Source: Pocillopora damicornis
Taxonomy: Eukaryota
DNA length: 64,000 nucleotides
Assembly: GCF_003704095.1 (NCBI RefSeq)
Contig: NW_020846214.1
Coordinates: forward strand, 1-64,000
Direction: 5' to 3'
Below, piece after piece: positions 6,001 through 27,000 of this stretch (positions are counted from its first letter, which is position 1; each line of letters starts with the position of its first letter). Position numbers: made by a program.

Positions 6001-9000
6001 ATTTTTTATTTGATTTGAGCAATTTGTATTTGATGTTACAGTTGTGGGCCACCGTAGTAAATTACTTGCCACTTCAAAAATGTTGGGAACATGAACTCAC
6101 CGCAAATAATACTGGGACATCTTAGTTAGTACTCAAGACCCTTTCGGCTTCTTTTGTTGTACCTGTGCCCGTTCGTAATAATCTTTGCCTGTCACTATTA
6201 CGCTGTACCTGTCCCTATTACGTTGTGCCTGTTCCTAATGAGCTGTGCCTGTTCCTAATGCGCTGTGCCTGTTCTTTATAAGCTGCGCCTGTTCCTAATA
6301 CGCTGTGCCAGTTTCTAGTAAGCCCTACCTGTTCCTACTACGGTGCCTAACTTTCGTTGTGCCTGTTCCTATTAGGAATTGGATTTTGGAAAATGAATGG
6401 CGAAGGGAGTACAGGACAAAATGCGCGGGAATGTCTTGCTGACCAAAGGAATCGCGGGCTCTATGAAAGTGCGCATACAACCTTTTTTGTTTCTTATTTG
6501 CAACATTCACTTATTTATTTGCAGCGTCCATTATTTTGGGAGAGTCTGAGTATCCCGTATATCCCATTAATTTTAGGCCAAAATATCCCGTATCCCAATA
6601 ATTCTTGTGGTTCGTACCCTTATAACGCCAGTTACCATGATGACGTCATTGAGCGTGACATGTTTAGGTATCCGACAACTAAAATACATTTTCCTGGGGC
6701 GTTTCATATTTCAAATAGAAATTACACGCAAATAAGACATCATGCTAATCAATGGTATGCTCTTATGTAATATTCTGTAAAGAATTGCTATGAGACTGAG
6801 GTGACTTAAAAGCAATGAGTAACCGGGAAAGTGGCGCAAAATGGAAAAAGCCGTGGGGGAGGGGGAAAGTTCATCTTGGACAAGAGCCGATATTGGCACC
6901 TATTGTCAATATTGACAATATTTGACGGCAAAAAGTAAAAAATCGCATTTGAAAGTATTTTTTCACTATTTACGCCTTCCACATTGACTAATATTGAGTA
7001 CTTGCCAGTACTGACTTGCTGTACTGGCAAGGTAAATTCTATATCCATTAAAATCTTAGTTGATATTTATGGTTAGTGATACTCCGTGAATGAAAAATAA
7101 TGTATGTGCTGCATACAAATATATGTACAACTTATAGAATTAGGTAAACATAAAATTAGAATCAAAGCGAATATTTTTACTGATTACTCAAGACCCTACA
7201 TACAGATATGATGTAGTGTAACATGCCAGATTTTTTCAACTGCCCTACTGACATCTTGTCTACCTACAGCTACAATAGGTGCAATAGATGTATCAGTGGC
7301 AACAATGGCAGAGGAAGAACGCTTATCGACAGGAGAAGTTTACACAATTGAATTTGTGCCATCTTATGACTTACCTGATGCACGGCCAAACTGTATTGAT
7401 CTTTTTCTTTAGCCACTTATTAGTAATATTGAGAAAGGATATATTGAGGTACCAATTTAGATGTGGACATTTTAGCTACTCGTCACTGTAGGAATAGACA
7501 AGACTATGCTTTTTATAACTTGTCAATATTATTATCTCAGTTGCTTTCAACTACTAAGTTAAGATGCTATGCTGACACAACAAAAATAAATCGTTCAACA
7601 GTTTCAGACACAACATGCTTAGGGTCAGTGATATCAGCAACATTGACCAAGCTGTTGAGTAACATGTATCCTTCTTAAAGTAAATCCAGTCTAAACTTAA
7701 CACTTATTCATTTGTTTTGTTTTTAGGATATTAAGTGAGCGCTATGCAGGATCACTTCCAAATTTTCCACCTGCCAATATCTCAATTCGGCATATTATAC
7801 TGTTTTGGACAGGAGACCATCCTGCATAGTGTTGGGTGTGCAAGACGAAAGGTACTGGAGCCAGAAAAGGATGTCGAAGGTGTCATATATGTGGGTAGGT
7901 GGTGGAAGTTAAAAACAGTGCAAGTTCTGATACCCATTCTTTTCAGTCTACACGTGTTTACTACATAATGTATTCTCTCAATTACATAGAGTATTGAAAG
8001 CATTTGTCTGTAAACTAGGAATAATGCATTATCTCCTGGTTATTCCATGTAGGTACACGGCTGAGTGAACGCAATCACAGCTACTACCCAACCTTCAAGA
8101 AGCAATACAGATACACTTATCAAAAGAAGTTGCTCAAGGAAGAATTGCCGACAATGAAGGCTTTAGAAGAGGAAGAAAGACCTATTTCCGAAGAATAAGC
8201 AAGGAAATTCTCTGCTGGGGTTATCAGTTCTTTATAGGCCTTATCCCCTTTATGGATATGATTTTCTCAGGGACTCCGTCTTTGATGCTATACGTCAGTA
8301 TAAGATTTCTATTCCCAGTTTTTCTCGGTCATATCATACCGAGCTTATTTCATTAGCAGACTGAAACCCACGTGGGGGAGCCAACATATTTGCTTTATCA
8401 AGCTCGGTTGATACTAAGATATTTAGTTATTAAAGGACAACTCAAACGTCGGCTGCCACACTCATTCTCTCCCCAGTGTATAATAGTACTTTGATCAAGT
8501 AACACGATTGTACCAGCTTATTACACAGTTGATCAACGAATAAAGACAGAATGTAGAAAGTAATTAAATAAAGAAAATTCTTTCTGGAGCAAAATGTTTT
8601 TAGTGAAGTCTGCGCCTTTGAATTCTCTGAACGGAACGATTCCATCCCATCTAAAGCCCTAAAACGCTTAAAAAGGTATAAGGAACAGTATTGAGAAACA
8701 AAAGATACAAACATGTTTGTGGTTGGCTAAAAATATTTTTATTAGTAATCACAAATGTTTGAGAAGAATTGATGCGCACAAGCGAGCATTATAACCAACC
8801 AGATGAATATCGAGGTTACAAATTAAACATTCGTTTTCCACAATGTTCCCTTTTAAACGAAGGTTTCTTTGCTTTTTGTGATTAAAACTTCATTTCTGAG
8901 TCTTTCTGCAAAGAGTTGCTCGTCACTCGCATCATAAGGTACATCCCACACTTGGAGATCATCTGCGTCCTGTGCAAAACACAGAGGTGGCTTAAGCACC

Positions 9001-24000: not shown

Positions 24001-27000
24001 TGACACCAGAATAAGCAAATACGTAGCTCGTAAATTACAGTTAAGACGATGAAAGGGCTCACCTAAACCAACGGAAACATGTTCCTCCACCACTCTGCCC
24101 TTTGCAGTCCACAGTTTAGACGGGAGCAACGATAAGATACACCCAATGCAGTTTGCAGACTTCTGATAGAAAACGCGGGTGAGAGCGCTGACTAACTTTG
24201 TTCACTTTTCCCATGGGGCCGGACCAGTCAAAACGTGTTGATTGTACCCGCTGACTCAACAATAGAACAAATTAGATGAGGGTGTCACCTTGCGACTGTA
24301 TTGTGAAATGTTACCAATGATAATTGCAAATAAAATCTACACCTCATTTTTTGTAGAAGTTTCTCAACGTTTTTACAGCATCGTCGGTACTAACCGTGTG
24401 ACAAGAGTTGCGAAAAAAGCATACGTTATAACGCGTACAATTCTTTGTTTATAGAAAACAATGGCAAAGACAATAGCGTACTATTGGGAATCTGCGTAAT
24501 TTTGCGTTGGGTGTGTGTTTGTGTGAGCCTTTTTTTCTGAATCTCTTTTTTAAATGTAGTCAAAATCTCAGTTTTTAAATTCAGTTCAAAGTTTTAACCG
24601 TCGAAGCTATCAAAATGTTATATTCTGTCGAAGAATGTGTTTTCTTGTTCCTTTTTTTGTCGCAACAGTTTTTTTCTTTTTTTCTTTGTCACGCGCAGTA
24701 CTTTGACTATAATGACTACCGTAGTAATCCTTCAACAAAGGAGAAAAACATTTTTTTCCACAGCCTTAGTTAGTTTATGGACTAGCTGTATTGTTTCGTA
24801 GGCTCGCGCGAGGCGACTTGTTTAAAAGAAACCTATGACACCCCACCTGTAAAGGGAACTACAATGAAATGGTGTATCCAAACGTTGTACGAGTTAAAAC
24901 TGGGACTGAATAGCACCTCTATTCCTTGGCCCACCCTTCAGCCCTCTCTTCCACGCTTCTTTCTTTTACTTTAGAGAAAGACATTTGATATAAAACTAGT
25001 TTCTAACTTCTACAACGTGTTAGATTCCCACTGCATTCAGACTTTCTTTATTCCTTTTTCCTATACCGAGGACTTAATGTGGACTGAACACAACTGGACT
25101 GAATGCTGTATTAGAACTTCCGTTTTGATGAAGCGAAGCGTCCAAACTAATGTGCTTAATGAAAAGAAAAGCAGAAAGGGAAAAAATGGAACGCGTAGTC
25201 CAGAACCTTGTTGTACAAAGTTACTGACTGTTTTTTTTTTCTGCAAGAGACGAATGGTTTTTCTTAATAGAATGAGGCATGAGAACTTGTAAATTAAAGG
25301 AAACTTGACACAAGAGAAACGATTTGGAAGATATGAAATCTAAACGCATATCTTTCCTAGTTAATGAGCGAGAAGAAAAACTTGACAAGTTCTTACCCGC
25401 CATATTCTAAAATTACATACCACGTTGATTTTCAAATGCGCGAGCCATAGCTCGCGCACGCCGTGTTTGTAGCATCACAATGATAACTCTACATACGTAG
25501 ACAAGTTCAGTTGAGAACACTGTGTAAACTGCGCGTCCAAGATCCTTCGGAGATTTTAGTCACAAAGTTACCAGTTGGAAATGGGCATTTCACAATTTTT
25601 CAGACGTTTGAACTGCTTTGCTTCTGCTCAAAGAAACCAAAAGTCGAAGTAAGAATCATTTCGCGGACCTATTGAGTGCTCTTGTCTTACAACTTTATTT
25701 CTGTTGTTTTAACTCAATCGATTCTCTCTTGTCGCCCACAGGAGACAAATGGAAAAAGAACTCTCAAGCATGCAAGAGTTGATCAGAATACTTGAACAAG
25801 ATATCCAGATCACAAGGTGATGAAAACAGTAGAACTTTTATATTATTTGGGGATCTCGCAGTAACATTTGAAGGAAGTGAATAATTGACATTCGGAGTGA
25901 AGGATCCTCGCAATGTCCCTGTCACATTTAATTGTGCGCACAGTTTGGATATGAAATTAAGTTTTGCGTGCAAGTCGCCGAAGAGTTGGTTGTTTAAAAG
26001 TTCATTCAGTTGAGATAATAAACTTTAAATTTCTGTTTCTAAACAGGAATACTGTTGAGTTGTTCAAGCAGCGACAAAAAGTAGTGGAGGAGAAAGAAAA
26101 GATGAGAAGAGACACCAGATACAATCTGATGGCTCAAGTCGAGGAGATTGAGAGTGAACTGGGACAAGCATTGGAAGAGCGCAAGGAGCTGATGTCACTT
26201 ATTATGTAAGTAGGACTTTAAAAAAAATGCAAGTAGGACTTAGGTGTATTTAACTCTGAAAATGTAACGAGTGAATGAATGGATGGAGCGACAGGATGAG
26301 ATGAGACGGAATGGGAAAGTCAGGGTCGAAGTAATTCTAAGAAACCCCTTAGTCATACTGACAACAAGCGTTAATACATTACTTTTTCTCTCCACAGTGA
26401 GTGCGGAATTCGAAAAACAGCCCTGGAAAAAGATGTTCAAGCGATGGAAAAGAAGGCGGAGTTTTTCTGGGAAGATCTGTATGATCCATTTCCAGTTTCC
26501 AAAACGAGCGCCAAAACATGGCAGGAGAATCTGCGTCCTGTGCGTTCAACGAGCGACCTGAACAAGGCGGTGCTTAAGCCACCCCTGTGTTTTGCACAGG
26601 ACGCAGATGATCTCCAAGTGTGGGATGTACCTTATGATGCGAGTGACGACGAACTCTTTGCAGAAAGACTCAGAAATGAAGTTTTAATCACAAAAAGCAA
26701 AGAAACCTTCGTTTAAAAGGAAACATTATGAAAAGCGAATCTGTTGAAGTTGTAAATGAAGCTTTTAAATTTGACAATGTCCTTTGGACATTTCTTTCGG
26801 TTGGCCTGTACATTTGAGATAAAGCATCACCCTTATTGAAAGGAAAATAAACTGATTTCAAAAGCAAATGTGTTTATGACGTGTATAATTGTGTCCCATG
26901 TTTTGGGTAATGACACGGAGCTCAATCAGGTCGCAGCTTGAAAAGGTATGAAAATCTAACTTGATTTCCAGTAAATTCAGTTACAAAGGACCCTTGCGGC

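What the first reader, a model, noticed from the sequence alone, without database searches (positions are those of the whole stretch)
8853..26716. Intact inverted pair of orphan genes encoding a candidate lipid-anchored coiled-coil adaptor with a PDZ-ligand tail
Seen: two 4-exon genes in divergent orientation about 15.6 kb apart, with identical exon sizes (68/75/159/319), canonical splice sites and 206-aa open frames. Their introns have diverged in length and sequence, and the surrounding TEs are decayed, which argues that both are under selection. Both keep Gly2 and Cys12 in an amphipathic/basic N-terminus, a ~100-aa heptad-rich helix, acidic Tyr motifs (WEDLYDP, WDVPYDA) and the C-terminus KETFV*. 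Established: Gly2 plus a nearby Cys is the usual myristoylation/palmitoylation arrangement, and E-T-x-V-COOH is the class I PDZ-binding consensus. Inference: a lineage-specific membrane-tethered (hetero)dimeric scaffold linking PDZ and possibly SH2 proteins. I do not recognise the family. Position 6 is not Ser/Thr, so myristoylation is uncertain.
[Added by the scan's program, not by the reader: the finding's places include an assembly gap (unread letters, written N; its length is only estimated) at 12917 to 13016, 14285 to 14384, 19102 to 19201, 22281 to 22380. Whether the letters on both sides are continuous or in frame is not known: test that first.]
Basis: partly seen in the sequence, partly recalled or inferred. 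Interest (0 to 1): 0.75.

Follow-up and report, generated by a model that had tools for sequence, protein, structure and literature searches.

The report
Duplicated small coiled-coil gene, function unknown
Two diverged, intact copies of a compact four-exon gene encode a 206-residue helical protein that matched no family in the searches open here; the gene is real and under selection, but its proposed lipid anchor and PDZ or SH2 docking role rest on short motifs only.

Summary
Copy A (minus strand, 8853-9940) and copy B (plus strand, 25581-26716) each have exons of 68/75/159/319 nt, GT..AG at all three introns and an open 206-codon frame. No N run lies inside either gene, so only their spacing and relative orientation depend on scaffolding.

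The shared unit is only about 1.3 kb, and the flanks are unrelated. These are old paralogues, not haplotigs. Exons have 0 indel events in 621 nt, against 11 in 544 intron columns, and dN/dS is 0.30.

In the last 65 codons, synonymous divergence collapses to 0.05. The identity of WDVPYDA and KETFV between the copies therefore says nothing about those motifs.

The helix with heptad periodicity is supported for exons 2-3. Neither copy meets the published N-myristoyltransferase motif. T-F-V fits the class I PDZ-ligand rule, but binding is untested.

Exon-by-exon Pfam, PDB, ESM Atlas and prokaryote-genome searches gave nothing.

Verdict: a real gene pair with a speculative function and modest interest.

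The parts
8816..10068 (-). Duplicated unit, copy A: the gene plus 128 nt upstream and about 37 nt downstream
   Evidence: blastn pair 8816-10068 with 26755-25453, 77.2% over 1325 columns. MAFFT alignment A1 and its identity profile.
25453..26755 (+). Duplicated unit, copy B
   Evidence: Same blastn pair and alignment.
9873..9940 (-). Copy A exon 1 (68 nt). ATG at 9940; Gly2 and Cys12; basic amphipathic N-terminus.
   Evidence: In-frame stop upstream.
9704..9778 (-). Copy A exon 2 (75 nt), with heptad periodicity
9344..9502 (-). Copy A exon 3 (159 nt), a single long helix
   Evidence: AlphaFold2 pLDDT 96.6, helix over residues 2-50 of 52. Periodicity.
8853..9171 (-). Copy A exon 4 (319 nt, including TAA). 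Low-confidence, probably flexible tail carrying WEDLYDP, WDVPYDA and KETFV-COOH.
   Evidence: AlphaFold2 pLDDT 37.1.
25581..25648 (+). Copy B exon 1 (68 nt)
25742..25816 (+). Copy B exon 2 (75 nt)
26047..26205 (+). Copy B exon 3 (159 nt)
26398..26716 (+). Copy B exon 4 (319 nt, including TAA)
9941..10068 (-). Copy A conserved upstream block (5' UTR or promoter). No indels; 0.80-0.90 identical around 10021-10061.
25453..25580 (+). Copy B conserved upstream block
8856..9050 (-). Copy A, last 65 codons: tract of very low divergence, including at synonymous sites (dS 0.049)
26519..26713 (+). Copy B, last 65 codons: the same low-divergence tract
8961..9040 (-). Perfect 15-nt inverted repeat (arms 8961-8975 and 9026-9040, 50 nt apart) inside exon 4. 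Predicted RNA stem.
   Evidence: The 101-nt stretch folds at -42.8 kcal/mol, z = -4.47, reached by 0 of 200 shuffles. The arm occurs nowhere else in the window.
26529..26608 (+). The same 15-nt inverted repeat in copy B
   Evidence: Fold -43.7 kcal/mol, z = -4.32.
12917..13016 (.). Assembly gap between the genes. The others are at 14285-14384, 19102-19201 and 22281-22380. Not filled or looked up.

Best explanation
These are two old paralogues of one compact, protein-coding gene, lying head to head as scaffolded. They arose by duplication of a segment of about 1.3 kb that carried its own upstream region.

Shown:
- Both copies keep the frame, the splice sites and the exon lengths, while the introns have decayed to about 30% mismatch with many indels.
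- dN/dS is about 0.3.
- The last 195 coding nt are almost identical even at synonymous sites.

Inferred for that tract: either a later gene-conversion event, perhaps started at the perfect 15-bp exonic palindrome that lies inside it, or a constraint on the nucleotides themselves.

Protein layout, partly shown and partly inferred:
- about 20 N-terminal residues that are basic, free of acidic residues and amphipathic, with the hydrophobic positions the same in both copies;
- about 76-95 residues of helix with heptad periodicity (exons 2-3);
- about 60 acidic, Pro/Ser-containing residues of low predicted order that carry the two Trp/Tyr motifs;
- a short predicted C-terminal helix, ending in T-F-V-COOH.

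Most likely mode of action (inferred): a small coiled-coil dimer that sits on a membrane or organelle surface through its amphipathic helix, with Cys12 possibly palmitoylated but without a myristoyl group. It would offer its flexible tail, including the C-terminal class-I-type PDZ ligand, to partner proteins.

Confidence, split by claim:
- real, selected coding paralogues: about 0.85;
- coiled-coil core: about 0.7;
- membrane-surface adaptor with a working PDZ ligand: about 0.3.
For: - Exon models, splice sites and open frames.
- Upstream in-frame stops.
- Homology limited to 8816-10068 and 25453-26755, with only two copies in the window.
- The identity profile rises in every exon and falls in every intron.
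- Introns: p = 0.28-0.34 and 11 gap events in 544 columns. Exons: 57 of 621 nt differ, with 0 gap events. Poisson P = 3.5e-6.
- Nei-Gojobori: dN 0.068, dS 0.229, ratio 0.30. The ratio is 0.25-0.30 in each exon. Fisher p = 2e-5.
- Last 65 codons: dS 0.049. Synonymous differences there are 2 of 42 sites against 22.5 of 82.2 elsewhere, p = 0.0018.
- A 15-bp perfect stem in both copies, z = -4.5 and -4.3.
- Exon 3 is one helix, pLDDT 96.6.
- 3.5-residue periodicity, as shuffles reaching the observed value out of 2000: exon 2, 21 and 20; exon 3, 3 and 17.
- N-terminus: muH 0.61, K+R 4 and D+E 0 in 22 residues. Read from the translations, the 7 differences in exon 1 all fall outside positions 3, 7, 10, 12 and 13. 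Position 6 is Leu in one copy and Phe in the other.
- T-F-V fits S/T-X-Phi (PMC2891790, passages).
- A working precedent exists for a small adaptor with a T-F-L end: Lurap1 (PMC5677176, passages).
Against: - No transcript, protein or orthologue evidence could be obtained.
- Exon 4 folded with pLDDT 37 from a two-sequence alignment. That may mean disorder, or only too little information.
- The periodicity test is a home-made statistic, not a calibrated coiled-coil predictor. The first 22 residues of exon 4 show no periodicity (846 and 1058 of 2000 shuffles at period 3.5).
- By my own rough estimate from recalled general amino-acid frequencies, an S/T-X-V/I/L end is expected by chance in about 3% of proteins.
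- The identity of the tail between the copies is uninformative, because it lies in the low-dS tract.
- dN/dS between two paralogues averages over both lineages. It cannot show that each copy is still functional today.
- Only exon-sized pieces of 22-105 aa were searched, so a known family could have been missed.
Confidence: 0.55

Rival explanations
1. One reading: a dually lipidated (N-myristoyl Gly2 plus palmitoyl Cys12) membrane anchor on a hetero- or homodimeric scaffold that links PDZ and SH2 proteins.
For: - Met-Gly start and Cys12 in both copies.
- Helical heptad core.
- T-F-V end.
- Two Tyr residues in acidic contexts.
- PMC9018777 (passages) notes an earlier study in which Phe was tolerated at position 6.
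Against: - Copy A misses positions 5, 6 and 7 of the NMT motif. Copy B misses 6 and 7.
- Gly2 follows ATG-G, so it coincides with a G at +4 that is favourable for initiation (recalled knowledge). Its presence in two paralogues is weak evidence.
- The two Tyr motifs resemble each other no more than chance. No phosphorylation evidence exists.
- The C-terminal motif lies in the low-dS tract.
Confidence: 0.12
2. The N-terminus is a cleavable organelle (for example mitochondrial) targeting presequence, not a surface anchor. The mature protein would be a soluble coiled coil inside an organelle, and the C-terminal T-F-V would be incidental.
For: The first 22 residues have 4 Lys/Arg and no Asp/Glu, and form an amphipathic helix (muH 0.61) in both copies. 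From general knowledge, that is the usual make-up of matrix-targeting presequences.
Against: - No targeting predictor could be run.
- The same features fit a membrane-binding amphipathic helix.
- The conserved Cys12 and the strongly conserved tail have no role in this reading.
Confidence: 0.13
3. The gene belongs to an already described eukaryotic family that exon-sized queries and the open libraries could not detect, so it is not an orphan.
For: - Queries were only 22, 24, 52 and 105 aa.
- The Atlas covers only clusters of 50 or more members.
Against: - The 105-aa exon 4 peptide is long enough for a domain match, yet it gave no Pfam family at or above cut-off. The best was E = 0.028 and 15.1 bits against a cut-off of 22.1, for a bacterial acetyltransferase cap.
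- PDB: 0 hits at E up to 10 by phmmer. Profile hits only at E 0.5 or worse.
- Atlas best score 0.85.
Confidence: 0.3
4. The two copies are not independent genes. They would be an assembly artefact (uncollapsed haplotypes), or a non-functional ORF carried by a repeated element.
For: - Copy A lies on a 7.3-kb stretch bounded by N runs, and four gaps separate the copies.
- Repeated segments abut some gaps.
- The shared unit is short and sharply bounded.
Against: - The flanks share nothing beyond the 1.3-kb unit.
- Intron mismatch of 28-34%, with 11 indel events, is in my judgement too high for alleles.
- Divergence follows the exon/intron pattern, with dN/dS 0.3.
- No transposon protein domain in the gene or in 11 of 11 tested neighbouring ORFs.
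- Only two copies in 64 kb.
Confidence: 0.04

Closest known systems
Lurap1 / Lrap35a (vertebrate leucine repeat adaptor protein 1)
   Same: [quoted passage not shown] Through that motif it binds the PDZ domains of MYO18A and Dishevelled. The protein here has a leucine/isoleucine heptad helix and ends in T-F-V.
   Different: No sequence relationship was found. No Lurap family came back from Pfam for any exon peptide. That Pfam holds such a family is my recollection, not a tool result. The paper calls Lurap1 conserved among vertebrates. I could not fetch a Lurap1 sequence for a direct comparison. This is a likeness in how it may work, not membership.
N-terminally myristoylated and palmitoylated anchors such as the G-alpha-o heptapeptide
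   Same: Met-Gly start with a nearby Cys (PMC9018777, passages).
   Different: The NMT motif is missed at positions 5, 6 and 7 in copy A and at 6 and 7 in copy B. The Cys is at position 12, not 3. The segment is predicted to be an amphipathic helix, not an unstructured lipidated peptide.
Generic eukaryotic coiled-coil segments (Atlas clusters carrying CFAP58_CC or CCDC39)
   Same: The exon 3 peptide scores 0.88-0.90 by language-model features against such clusters. Both are long charged helices with heptad hydrophobics.
   Different: Only 114-135 of 256 features are shared. The tool states that 9 in 10 same-family pairs share 170 or more. Recognition is 1568, below 2300. This is a likeness of composition and fold class only.
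Taxonomically restricted (orphan) genes kept as diverged local duplicates
   Same: Short, compact, no detectable family, a duplicated pair under purifying selection.
   Different: Restriction to one lineage was not tested. No eukaryote collection was open.

Membership tests
N-myristoyltransferase substrates (motif M1-G2-[not DEFRWY]3-X4-[not DEKR]5-[ACGST]6-[KR]7, as quoted in PMC9018777) | Gly at position 2 | tested here: met
   Gly2 in both copies.
N-myristoyltransferase substrates | Position 3 is not D, E, F, R, W or Y | tested here: met
   Ile3 in both copies (motif).
N-myristoyltransferase substrates | Position 5 is not D, E, K or R | tested here: inconclusive
   Copy A has Arg5 (not met). 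Copy B has Gln5 (met).
N-myristoyltransferase substrates | Position 6 is A, C, G, S or T | tested here: not met
   Leu6 in A and Phe6 in B. The same passage says an earlier study found that Phe can occupy position 6.
N-myristoyltransferase substrates | Position 7 is K or R (soft requirement) | tested here: not met
   Phe7 in both copies.
N-myristoyltransferase substrates | Myristate actually attached | not testable with these tools
   Needs proteomic data on the native protein.
Class I PDZ ligands (S/T-X-Phi-COOH; PMC2891790) | Ser or Thr at position -2 | tested here: met
   Thr in both copies.
Class I PDZ ligands | Hydrophobic residue at the free C-terminus | tested here: met
   Val followed directly by TAA in both copies.
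Class I PDZ ligands | Motif kept by selection among relatives | tested here: inconclusive
   It is identical in the two copies, but it lies in a tract with dS 0.049, where identity is uninformative. No orthologues were available.
Class I PDZ ligands | Binding to a PDZ domain | not testable with these tools
   No interaction data.
Coiled-coil proteins | Long uninterrupted alpha-helix | tested here: met
   Exon 3: helix over residues 2-50 of 52, pLDDT 96.6. Exon 2 was not folded. The junctions were not modelled, because exons were not joined.
Coiled-coil proteins | Heptad (3.5-residue) periodicity of hydrophobic residues | tested here: met
   Shuffles reaching the observed value, out of 2000: exon 2, 21 and 20; exon 3, 3 and 17. 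Not met in the first 22 residues of exon 4 (846 and 1058).
Coiled-coil proteins | Oligomeric state (dimer, heterodimer of the two paralogues) | not testable with these tools
   No multimer prediction was available.
Any Pfam family, including transposon proteins | Score at or above the curated cut-off | tested here: not met
   0 of 8 exon peptides reached a cut-off. The best was 15.1 bits against 22.1. The joined protein was not searched.
Lurap1 / Lrap35a family | Sequence similarity to the family | tested here: not met
   No such named hit in Pfam or PDB. No direct comparison was possible.
SH2 ligands (phosphotyrosine motifs) | Tyr phosphorylated in a recognised context | not testable with these tools
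   The Tyr residues are present. There are no phosphorylation data. The two motifs are alike no more than chance.

The most novel reading that the evidence does not exclude
This would be a lineage-restricted family of small dimeric adaptors. They would dock on membranes through an unlipidated or only palmitoylated amphipathic helix and recruit PDZ-domain proteins through T-F-V-COOH. The two paralogues would be kept partly homogenised by gene conversion seeded at a perfect 15-bp palindrome inside the last exon. That palindrome might also act as a conserved mRNA stem.
Probability: 0.12. Interest if true: 0.5.

Novelty: new member of a known kind. Interest (0 to 1): 0.3.

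Why it matters
If the pair is expressed and restricted to one lineage, it is a clean small example of how a taxon-specific gene is kept after duplication. It has its own promoter block, a strict frame and splice-site conservation. One end is either homogenised or under constraint at the nucleotide level.

If the tail really binds PDZ domains, it would add a compact adaptor to that lineage's polarity or trafficking toolkit.

Neither point bears on a long-standing open question. Small coiled-coil proteins of unknown function are, from general knowledge, common in invertebrate genomes.

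The practical lesson is that identity of short motifs between two paralogues is no evidence for those motifs when synonymous sites in the same tract are identical too.

Tried and rejected
- Pfam, exon by exon (8 peptides): nothing at cut-off.
- PDB by sequence: exon 4 as a single sequence gave 0 hits. The exon 3 and exon 4 two-sequence profiles gave hits only at E 0.5 or worse: a fucosidase, Cry6Aa and a designed coil. I treat these as chance and fetched none of them.
- ESM Atlas: exon 4 gave a best score of 0.85, to bacterial hypothetical proteins. Exon 3 gave generic coiled-coil clusters. Neither is a usable lead.
- Prokaryote genomes: 53 pattern matches, 0 confirmed. This is only a negative control, since the window is eukaryotic.
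- Full-text search for the three motif strings: 0 papers.
- Rfam at gathering thresholds gave 0 matches, and the tRNA scan gave 0.
- Haplotig reading: rejected, because the flanks share nothing.
- Overlapping antisense ORF as the cause of the low-dS tract: rejected. Only ORFs of 35-42 aa (copy A) and 42-59 aa (copy B) lie there on the opposite strand.
- Palindrome arm as the terminal repeat of a transposon: not supported. The arm occurs only at the four arm sites, even allowing 2 mismatches.
- Internal duplication of the Trp/Tyr motif: at chance level.
- Transposon protein remnants between the genes: 0 of 11 ORFs tested. I sent 11 of the 23 ORFs of 70 aa or more. Of the 12 left out, 6 run across N runs and 6 are among the shorter ones, 71-83 aa.
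- Fold search was not run. The exon 4 model has pLDDT 37, and the exon 3 model is a lone helix, so any match would be meaningless.
- The phage, plasmid and E. coli collections and the phage, defence and NCBIfam libraries were not used, as they are irrelevant to a eukaryotic gene.
- The joined 206-aa protein was not sent to any search or fold. This limits sensitivity for exons 1-3.
- I do not take the window for human. GC content is 0.24-0.42 and the introns are 93-230 nt.
- Unchecked because closed: the search for homologous proteins, the search of protein representatives, metagenome contigs and viral contigs. No eukaryote homologue search was therefore made.
- Supplementary files were not consulted. 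I know of none that bears on a claim made here.
- The N runs were neither filled nor looked up.

Full report
1. What is there

Reading both strands and checking by script confirms two gene models.
- Copy A, minus strand: exons 9873-9940, 9704-9778, 9344-9502 and 8853-9171.
- Copy B, plus strand: exons 25581-25648, 25742-25816, 26047-26205 and 26398-26716.
- Both have exon lengths of 68/75/159/319 nt, GT donors and pyrimidine-rich cag acceptors at all three introns.
- Each exon has an open frame in the phase that the preceding exons dictate. The split codons read K, R and I in both copies.
- That gives 206 codons and TAA.
- The ATG has A at -3 and G at +4 in both copies (read).
- Both copies have an in-frame stop upstream of the ATG.
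- An AATAAA hexamer lies about 110 nt (A) and 130 nt (B) past the stop. I read this by eye. It is weak evidence in AT-rich DNA.

2. The gaps

The N runs listed with the finding (12917-13016, 14285-14384, 19102-19201, 22281-22380) all lie between the two genes.
- Copy A sits in the N-free stretch 5570-12916. Copy B sits in 22381-64000.
- Frame continuity across a gap is therefore not in question.
- What does depend on scaffolding is the spacing (15,640 nt between the start codons, 400 of them N) and the head-to-head orientation.
- Copy A's stretch is only 7.3 kb long.
- Repeats abut some gaps: 18843-19101 is inverted against 19445-19701, and 18145-18841 is direct with 22630-23319.
- The layout of the interval should therefore be taken as provisional.
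- I did not fill or look up any N.

3. Paralogues, not haplotigs

- blastn of 3320-12916 against the window gives one pair, 8816-10068 with 26755-25453 (77.2% over 1325 columns). The flanks share nothing else.
- tblastn with each exon peptide finds only these two loci. The next best E is 0.098.
- The MAFFT alignment and its 40-column identity profile show that homology begins about 128 nt upstream of the ATG and ends about 37-39 nt after the stop.
- Identity is 0.8-1.0 in every exon and 0.17-0.65 in intron interiors.
- Part of the upstream block is 0.80-0.90 identical and has no indels. This fits a promoter or 5' UTR that was duplicated with the gene.

4. Selection

- Introns differ at 28-34% of aligned sites, with 11 gap events in 544 columns.
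- The 621 exon nt differ at 57 sites, with no gap event.
- At the intron indel rate, 12.6 events would be expected in the exons. The Poisson probability of none is 3.5e-6.
- Nei-Gojobori counts summed over the in-frame codons of each exon give dN 0.068, dS 0.229 and a ratio of 0.30. Each exon gives 0.25-0.30.
- Synonymous against non-synonymous differences give p = 2e-5.
- dS in exons 1-3 and in the first 40 codons of exon 4 is 0.29-0.60, close to the intron divergence (Jukes-Cantor 0.36-0.46).
- The coding sequence has therefore been under purifying selection, on average, since the duplication.
- This cannot show that each copy is functional today. Both are, however, intact.

5. A tract that behaves differently

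- In the last 65 codons, dS is 0.049. That is 2 synonymous differences in 42 synonymous sites, against 22.5 in 82.2 elsewhere, p = 0.0018.
- Divergence rises again within a few bases after the stop.
- The tract contains WDVPYDA and KETFV. Their identity in the two copies therefore carries no weight as evidence for those motifs.
- Inside the tract lies a perfect 15-nt inverted repeat with 50 nt between the arms, identical in both copies.
- The 101-nt stretch around it folds at -42.8 and -43.7 kcal/mol. The z-scores are -4.47 and -4.32, and 0 of 200 shuffles fold as well.
- Neighbouring stretches of exon 4 are unremarkable, with z of 0.48 and -0.17.
- The arm occurs nowhere else in the window, even with 2 mismatches.
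- No long antisense ORF covers the tract.
- Two readings remain. One is a later gene-conversion tract between the inverted copies, perhaps started at the palindrome. The other is a constraint on the nucleotides, for example an mRNA stem.
- The two copies are identical over the stem, so no covariation test is possible.

6. The protein, exon by exon

- Exon 1 (22 aa): Gly2 and Cys12, 4 Lys/Arg and no Asp/Glu.
- Residues 2-15 have a helical hydrophobic moment of 0.61 in both copies. This is reached by 101 and 143 of 5000 shuffles.
- The 7 differences between the copies in exon 1 fall outside positions 3, 7, 10, 12 and 13. Position 6 is Leu or Phe (read).
- Exons 2 and 3 (24 and 52 aa): 3.5-residue periodicity of hydrophobic residues. 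It is reached by 21 and 20 of 2000 shuffles for exon 2, and by 3 and 17 for exon 3.
- Exon 3 folds as one helix, with pLDDT 96.6.
- Exon 4 (105 aa): pLDDT 37.1 from a two-sequence alignment, with short helices at residues 10-19 and 85-101 of the exon.
- Exon 4 residues 23-84 hold 13 Asp/Glu, 7 Lys/Arg and 7 Pro in copy A.
- The likeness between the two Trp/Tyr motifs is at chance level. 108 of 300 and 226 of 300 shuffles reach the score.

7. Lipid anchor

- PMC9018777 (passages) quotes the NMT recognition motif as M1-G2-[not DEFRWY]3-X4-[not DEKR]5-[ACGST]6-[KR]7.
- It notes that position 7 is soft and that an earlier study found Arg, Asn, Phe and Val at position 6.
- Copy A (Ile3, Arg5, Leu6, Phe7) misses positions 5, 6 and 7.
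- Copy B (Ile3, Gln5, Phe6, Phe7) misses positions 6 and 7.
- The sequence therefore does not support myristoylation. This is most clear for copy A.
- Palmitoylation of Cys12 has no consensus to test.
- An unlipidated amphipathic helix and an organelle-targeting presequence fit the same data.

8. PDZ ligand

- T-F-V-COOH meets the class I rule S/T-X-Phi (PMC2891790, passages).
- A working precedent for a small leucine-repeat adaptor with a T-F-L end is Lurap1. It binds the MYO18A and Dishevelled PDZ domains through that motif (PMC5677176, passages).
- No sequence link to Lurap1 came back from any search, and I could not fetch one for comparison.
- This is a likeness in how it may work, not membership.

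9. Family searches

- Pfam: 0 of 8 exon peptides at cut-off.
- PDB: nothing significant.
- ESM Atlas: 0.85 for exon 4. For exon 3, 0.88-0.90 to generic coiled-coil clusters, with only 114-135 of 256 features shared.
- Prokaryote genomes: 53 pattern matches, none confirmed.
- Literature strings: 0 papers.
- 'I do not recognise the family' therefore stays just that. Orphan status is untested.

10. Surroundings

- The window is eukaryotic.
- It holds an F-box plus LRR ORF (35562-37283, minus strand), a ubiquitin-conjugating-enzyme domain (55505-56353), a PX domain fragment (59119-59550) and a helicase C-terminal domain (3601-4179).
- I do not take it for human.
- Between the two copies I found no transposon protein domain. 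0 of 11 ORFs tested matched, out of 23 ORFs of 70 aa or more.
- There is repeated DNA of several kinds.

11. Verdict

This is a real, selected, duplicated gene for a protein with a coiled-coil core and an amphipathic basic N-terminus.
- The lipid anchor is not supported by the sequence. The PDZ and SH2 roles rest on short motifs whose conservation here is uninformative.
- I rate it a new member of a known kind, namely small coiled-coil adaptor-like proteins of unknown family kept as local duplicates. Interest is 0.3.

12. Slips

- One script held three typed anchors from the window.
- Neither sequence was used further.

Noticed in passing
window 8961-8975 / 9026-9040 and 26529-26543 / 26594-26608: A perfect 15-nt inverted repeat inside the coding sequence of exon 4, identical in both copies. 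The predicted RNA stem has z about -4.4. The arm occurs nowhere else in the window.
   Followed up: partly
window 8856-9050 and 26519-26713: In the last 65 codons the two copies are almost identical even at synonymous sites (dS 0.049 against 0.29-0.60 elsewhere). This is either a gene-conversion tract or a nucleotide-level constraint.
   Followed up: partly
window 10063-10104 and 25437-25458: Seen by eye, and not tested statistically. At or just inside the upstream edge of the duplicated unit, each copy has a short GC-rich palindrome. Copy A has 8-nt arms about 26 nt apart. Copy B has 9-nt arms with a 4-nt loop. The two differ in sequence.
   Followed up: no
window 10565-10609 / 10680-10721: Inverted repeat with arms of about 45 nt (84% identical) about 70 nt apart. 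It looks like a miniature inverted-repeat element.
   Followed up: no
window 14948-17671: Tandem duplication of a unit of about 1.35 kb, 82-83% identical (14948-16345 and 16345-17671). The one ORF tested there (17226-17498) has no Pfam match.
   Followed up: no
window 18145-18841 and 22630-23319; 18843-19101 and 19445-19701: Direct repeats of about 700 nt (90%) bracket the stretch that holds two N runs. An inverted repeat of 259 nt (92%) straddles the gap at 19102-19201. This is either a decayed repeat-bounded element or an assembly problem. No protein domain was found in the 7 ORFs tested between them (6, 1).
   Followed up: partly
window 27315-27524, 34112-34314, 40198-40390, 44839-45056: Four same-strand copies of a dispersed repeat of about 200 nt, 70-74% identical. 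They look like an old short interspersed element.
   Followed up: no
window 35562-37283 (-), 34852-35307 (-); 35321-35509 and 47090-46902: A single long ORF with an F-box followed by leucine-rich repeats, and a further LRR ORF just downstream. A 189-nt stretch between them has a 69% identical inverted match at 46902-47090.
   Followed up: no
window 55505-56353 (+), 59119-59550 (-), 3601-4179 (+), 45259-46530 (-): ORFs with a ubiquitin-conjugating-enzyme domain, a PX domain fragment and a helicase C-terminal domain. A 423-aa ORF has no family at cut-off. These are probably exons of neighbouring host genes.
   Followed up: no
window 5875-6036 and 6163-6342: Two arrays of 20-nt tandem repeats (about 8 and 7-9 copies), upstream of copy A's stretch.
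   Followed up: no
window 143-964, 1092-1191, 3220-3319, 5470-5569: Further N runs outside the finding's span. The first 6 kb of the window is highly fragmented.
   Followed up: no
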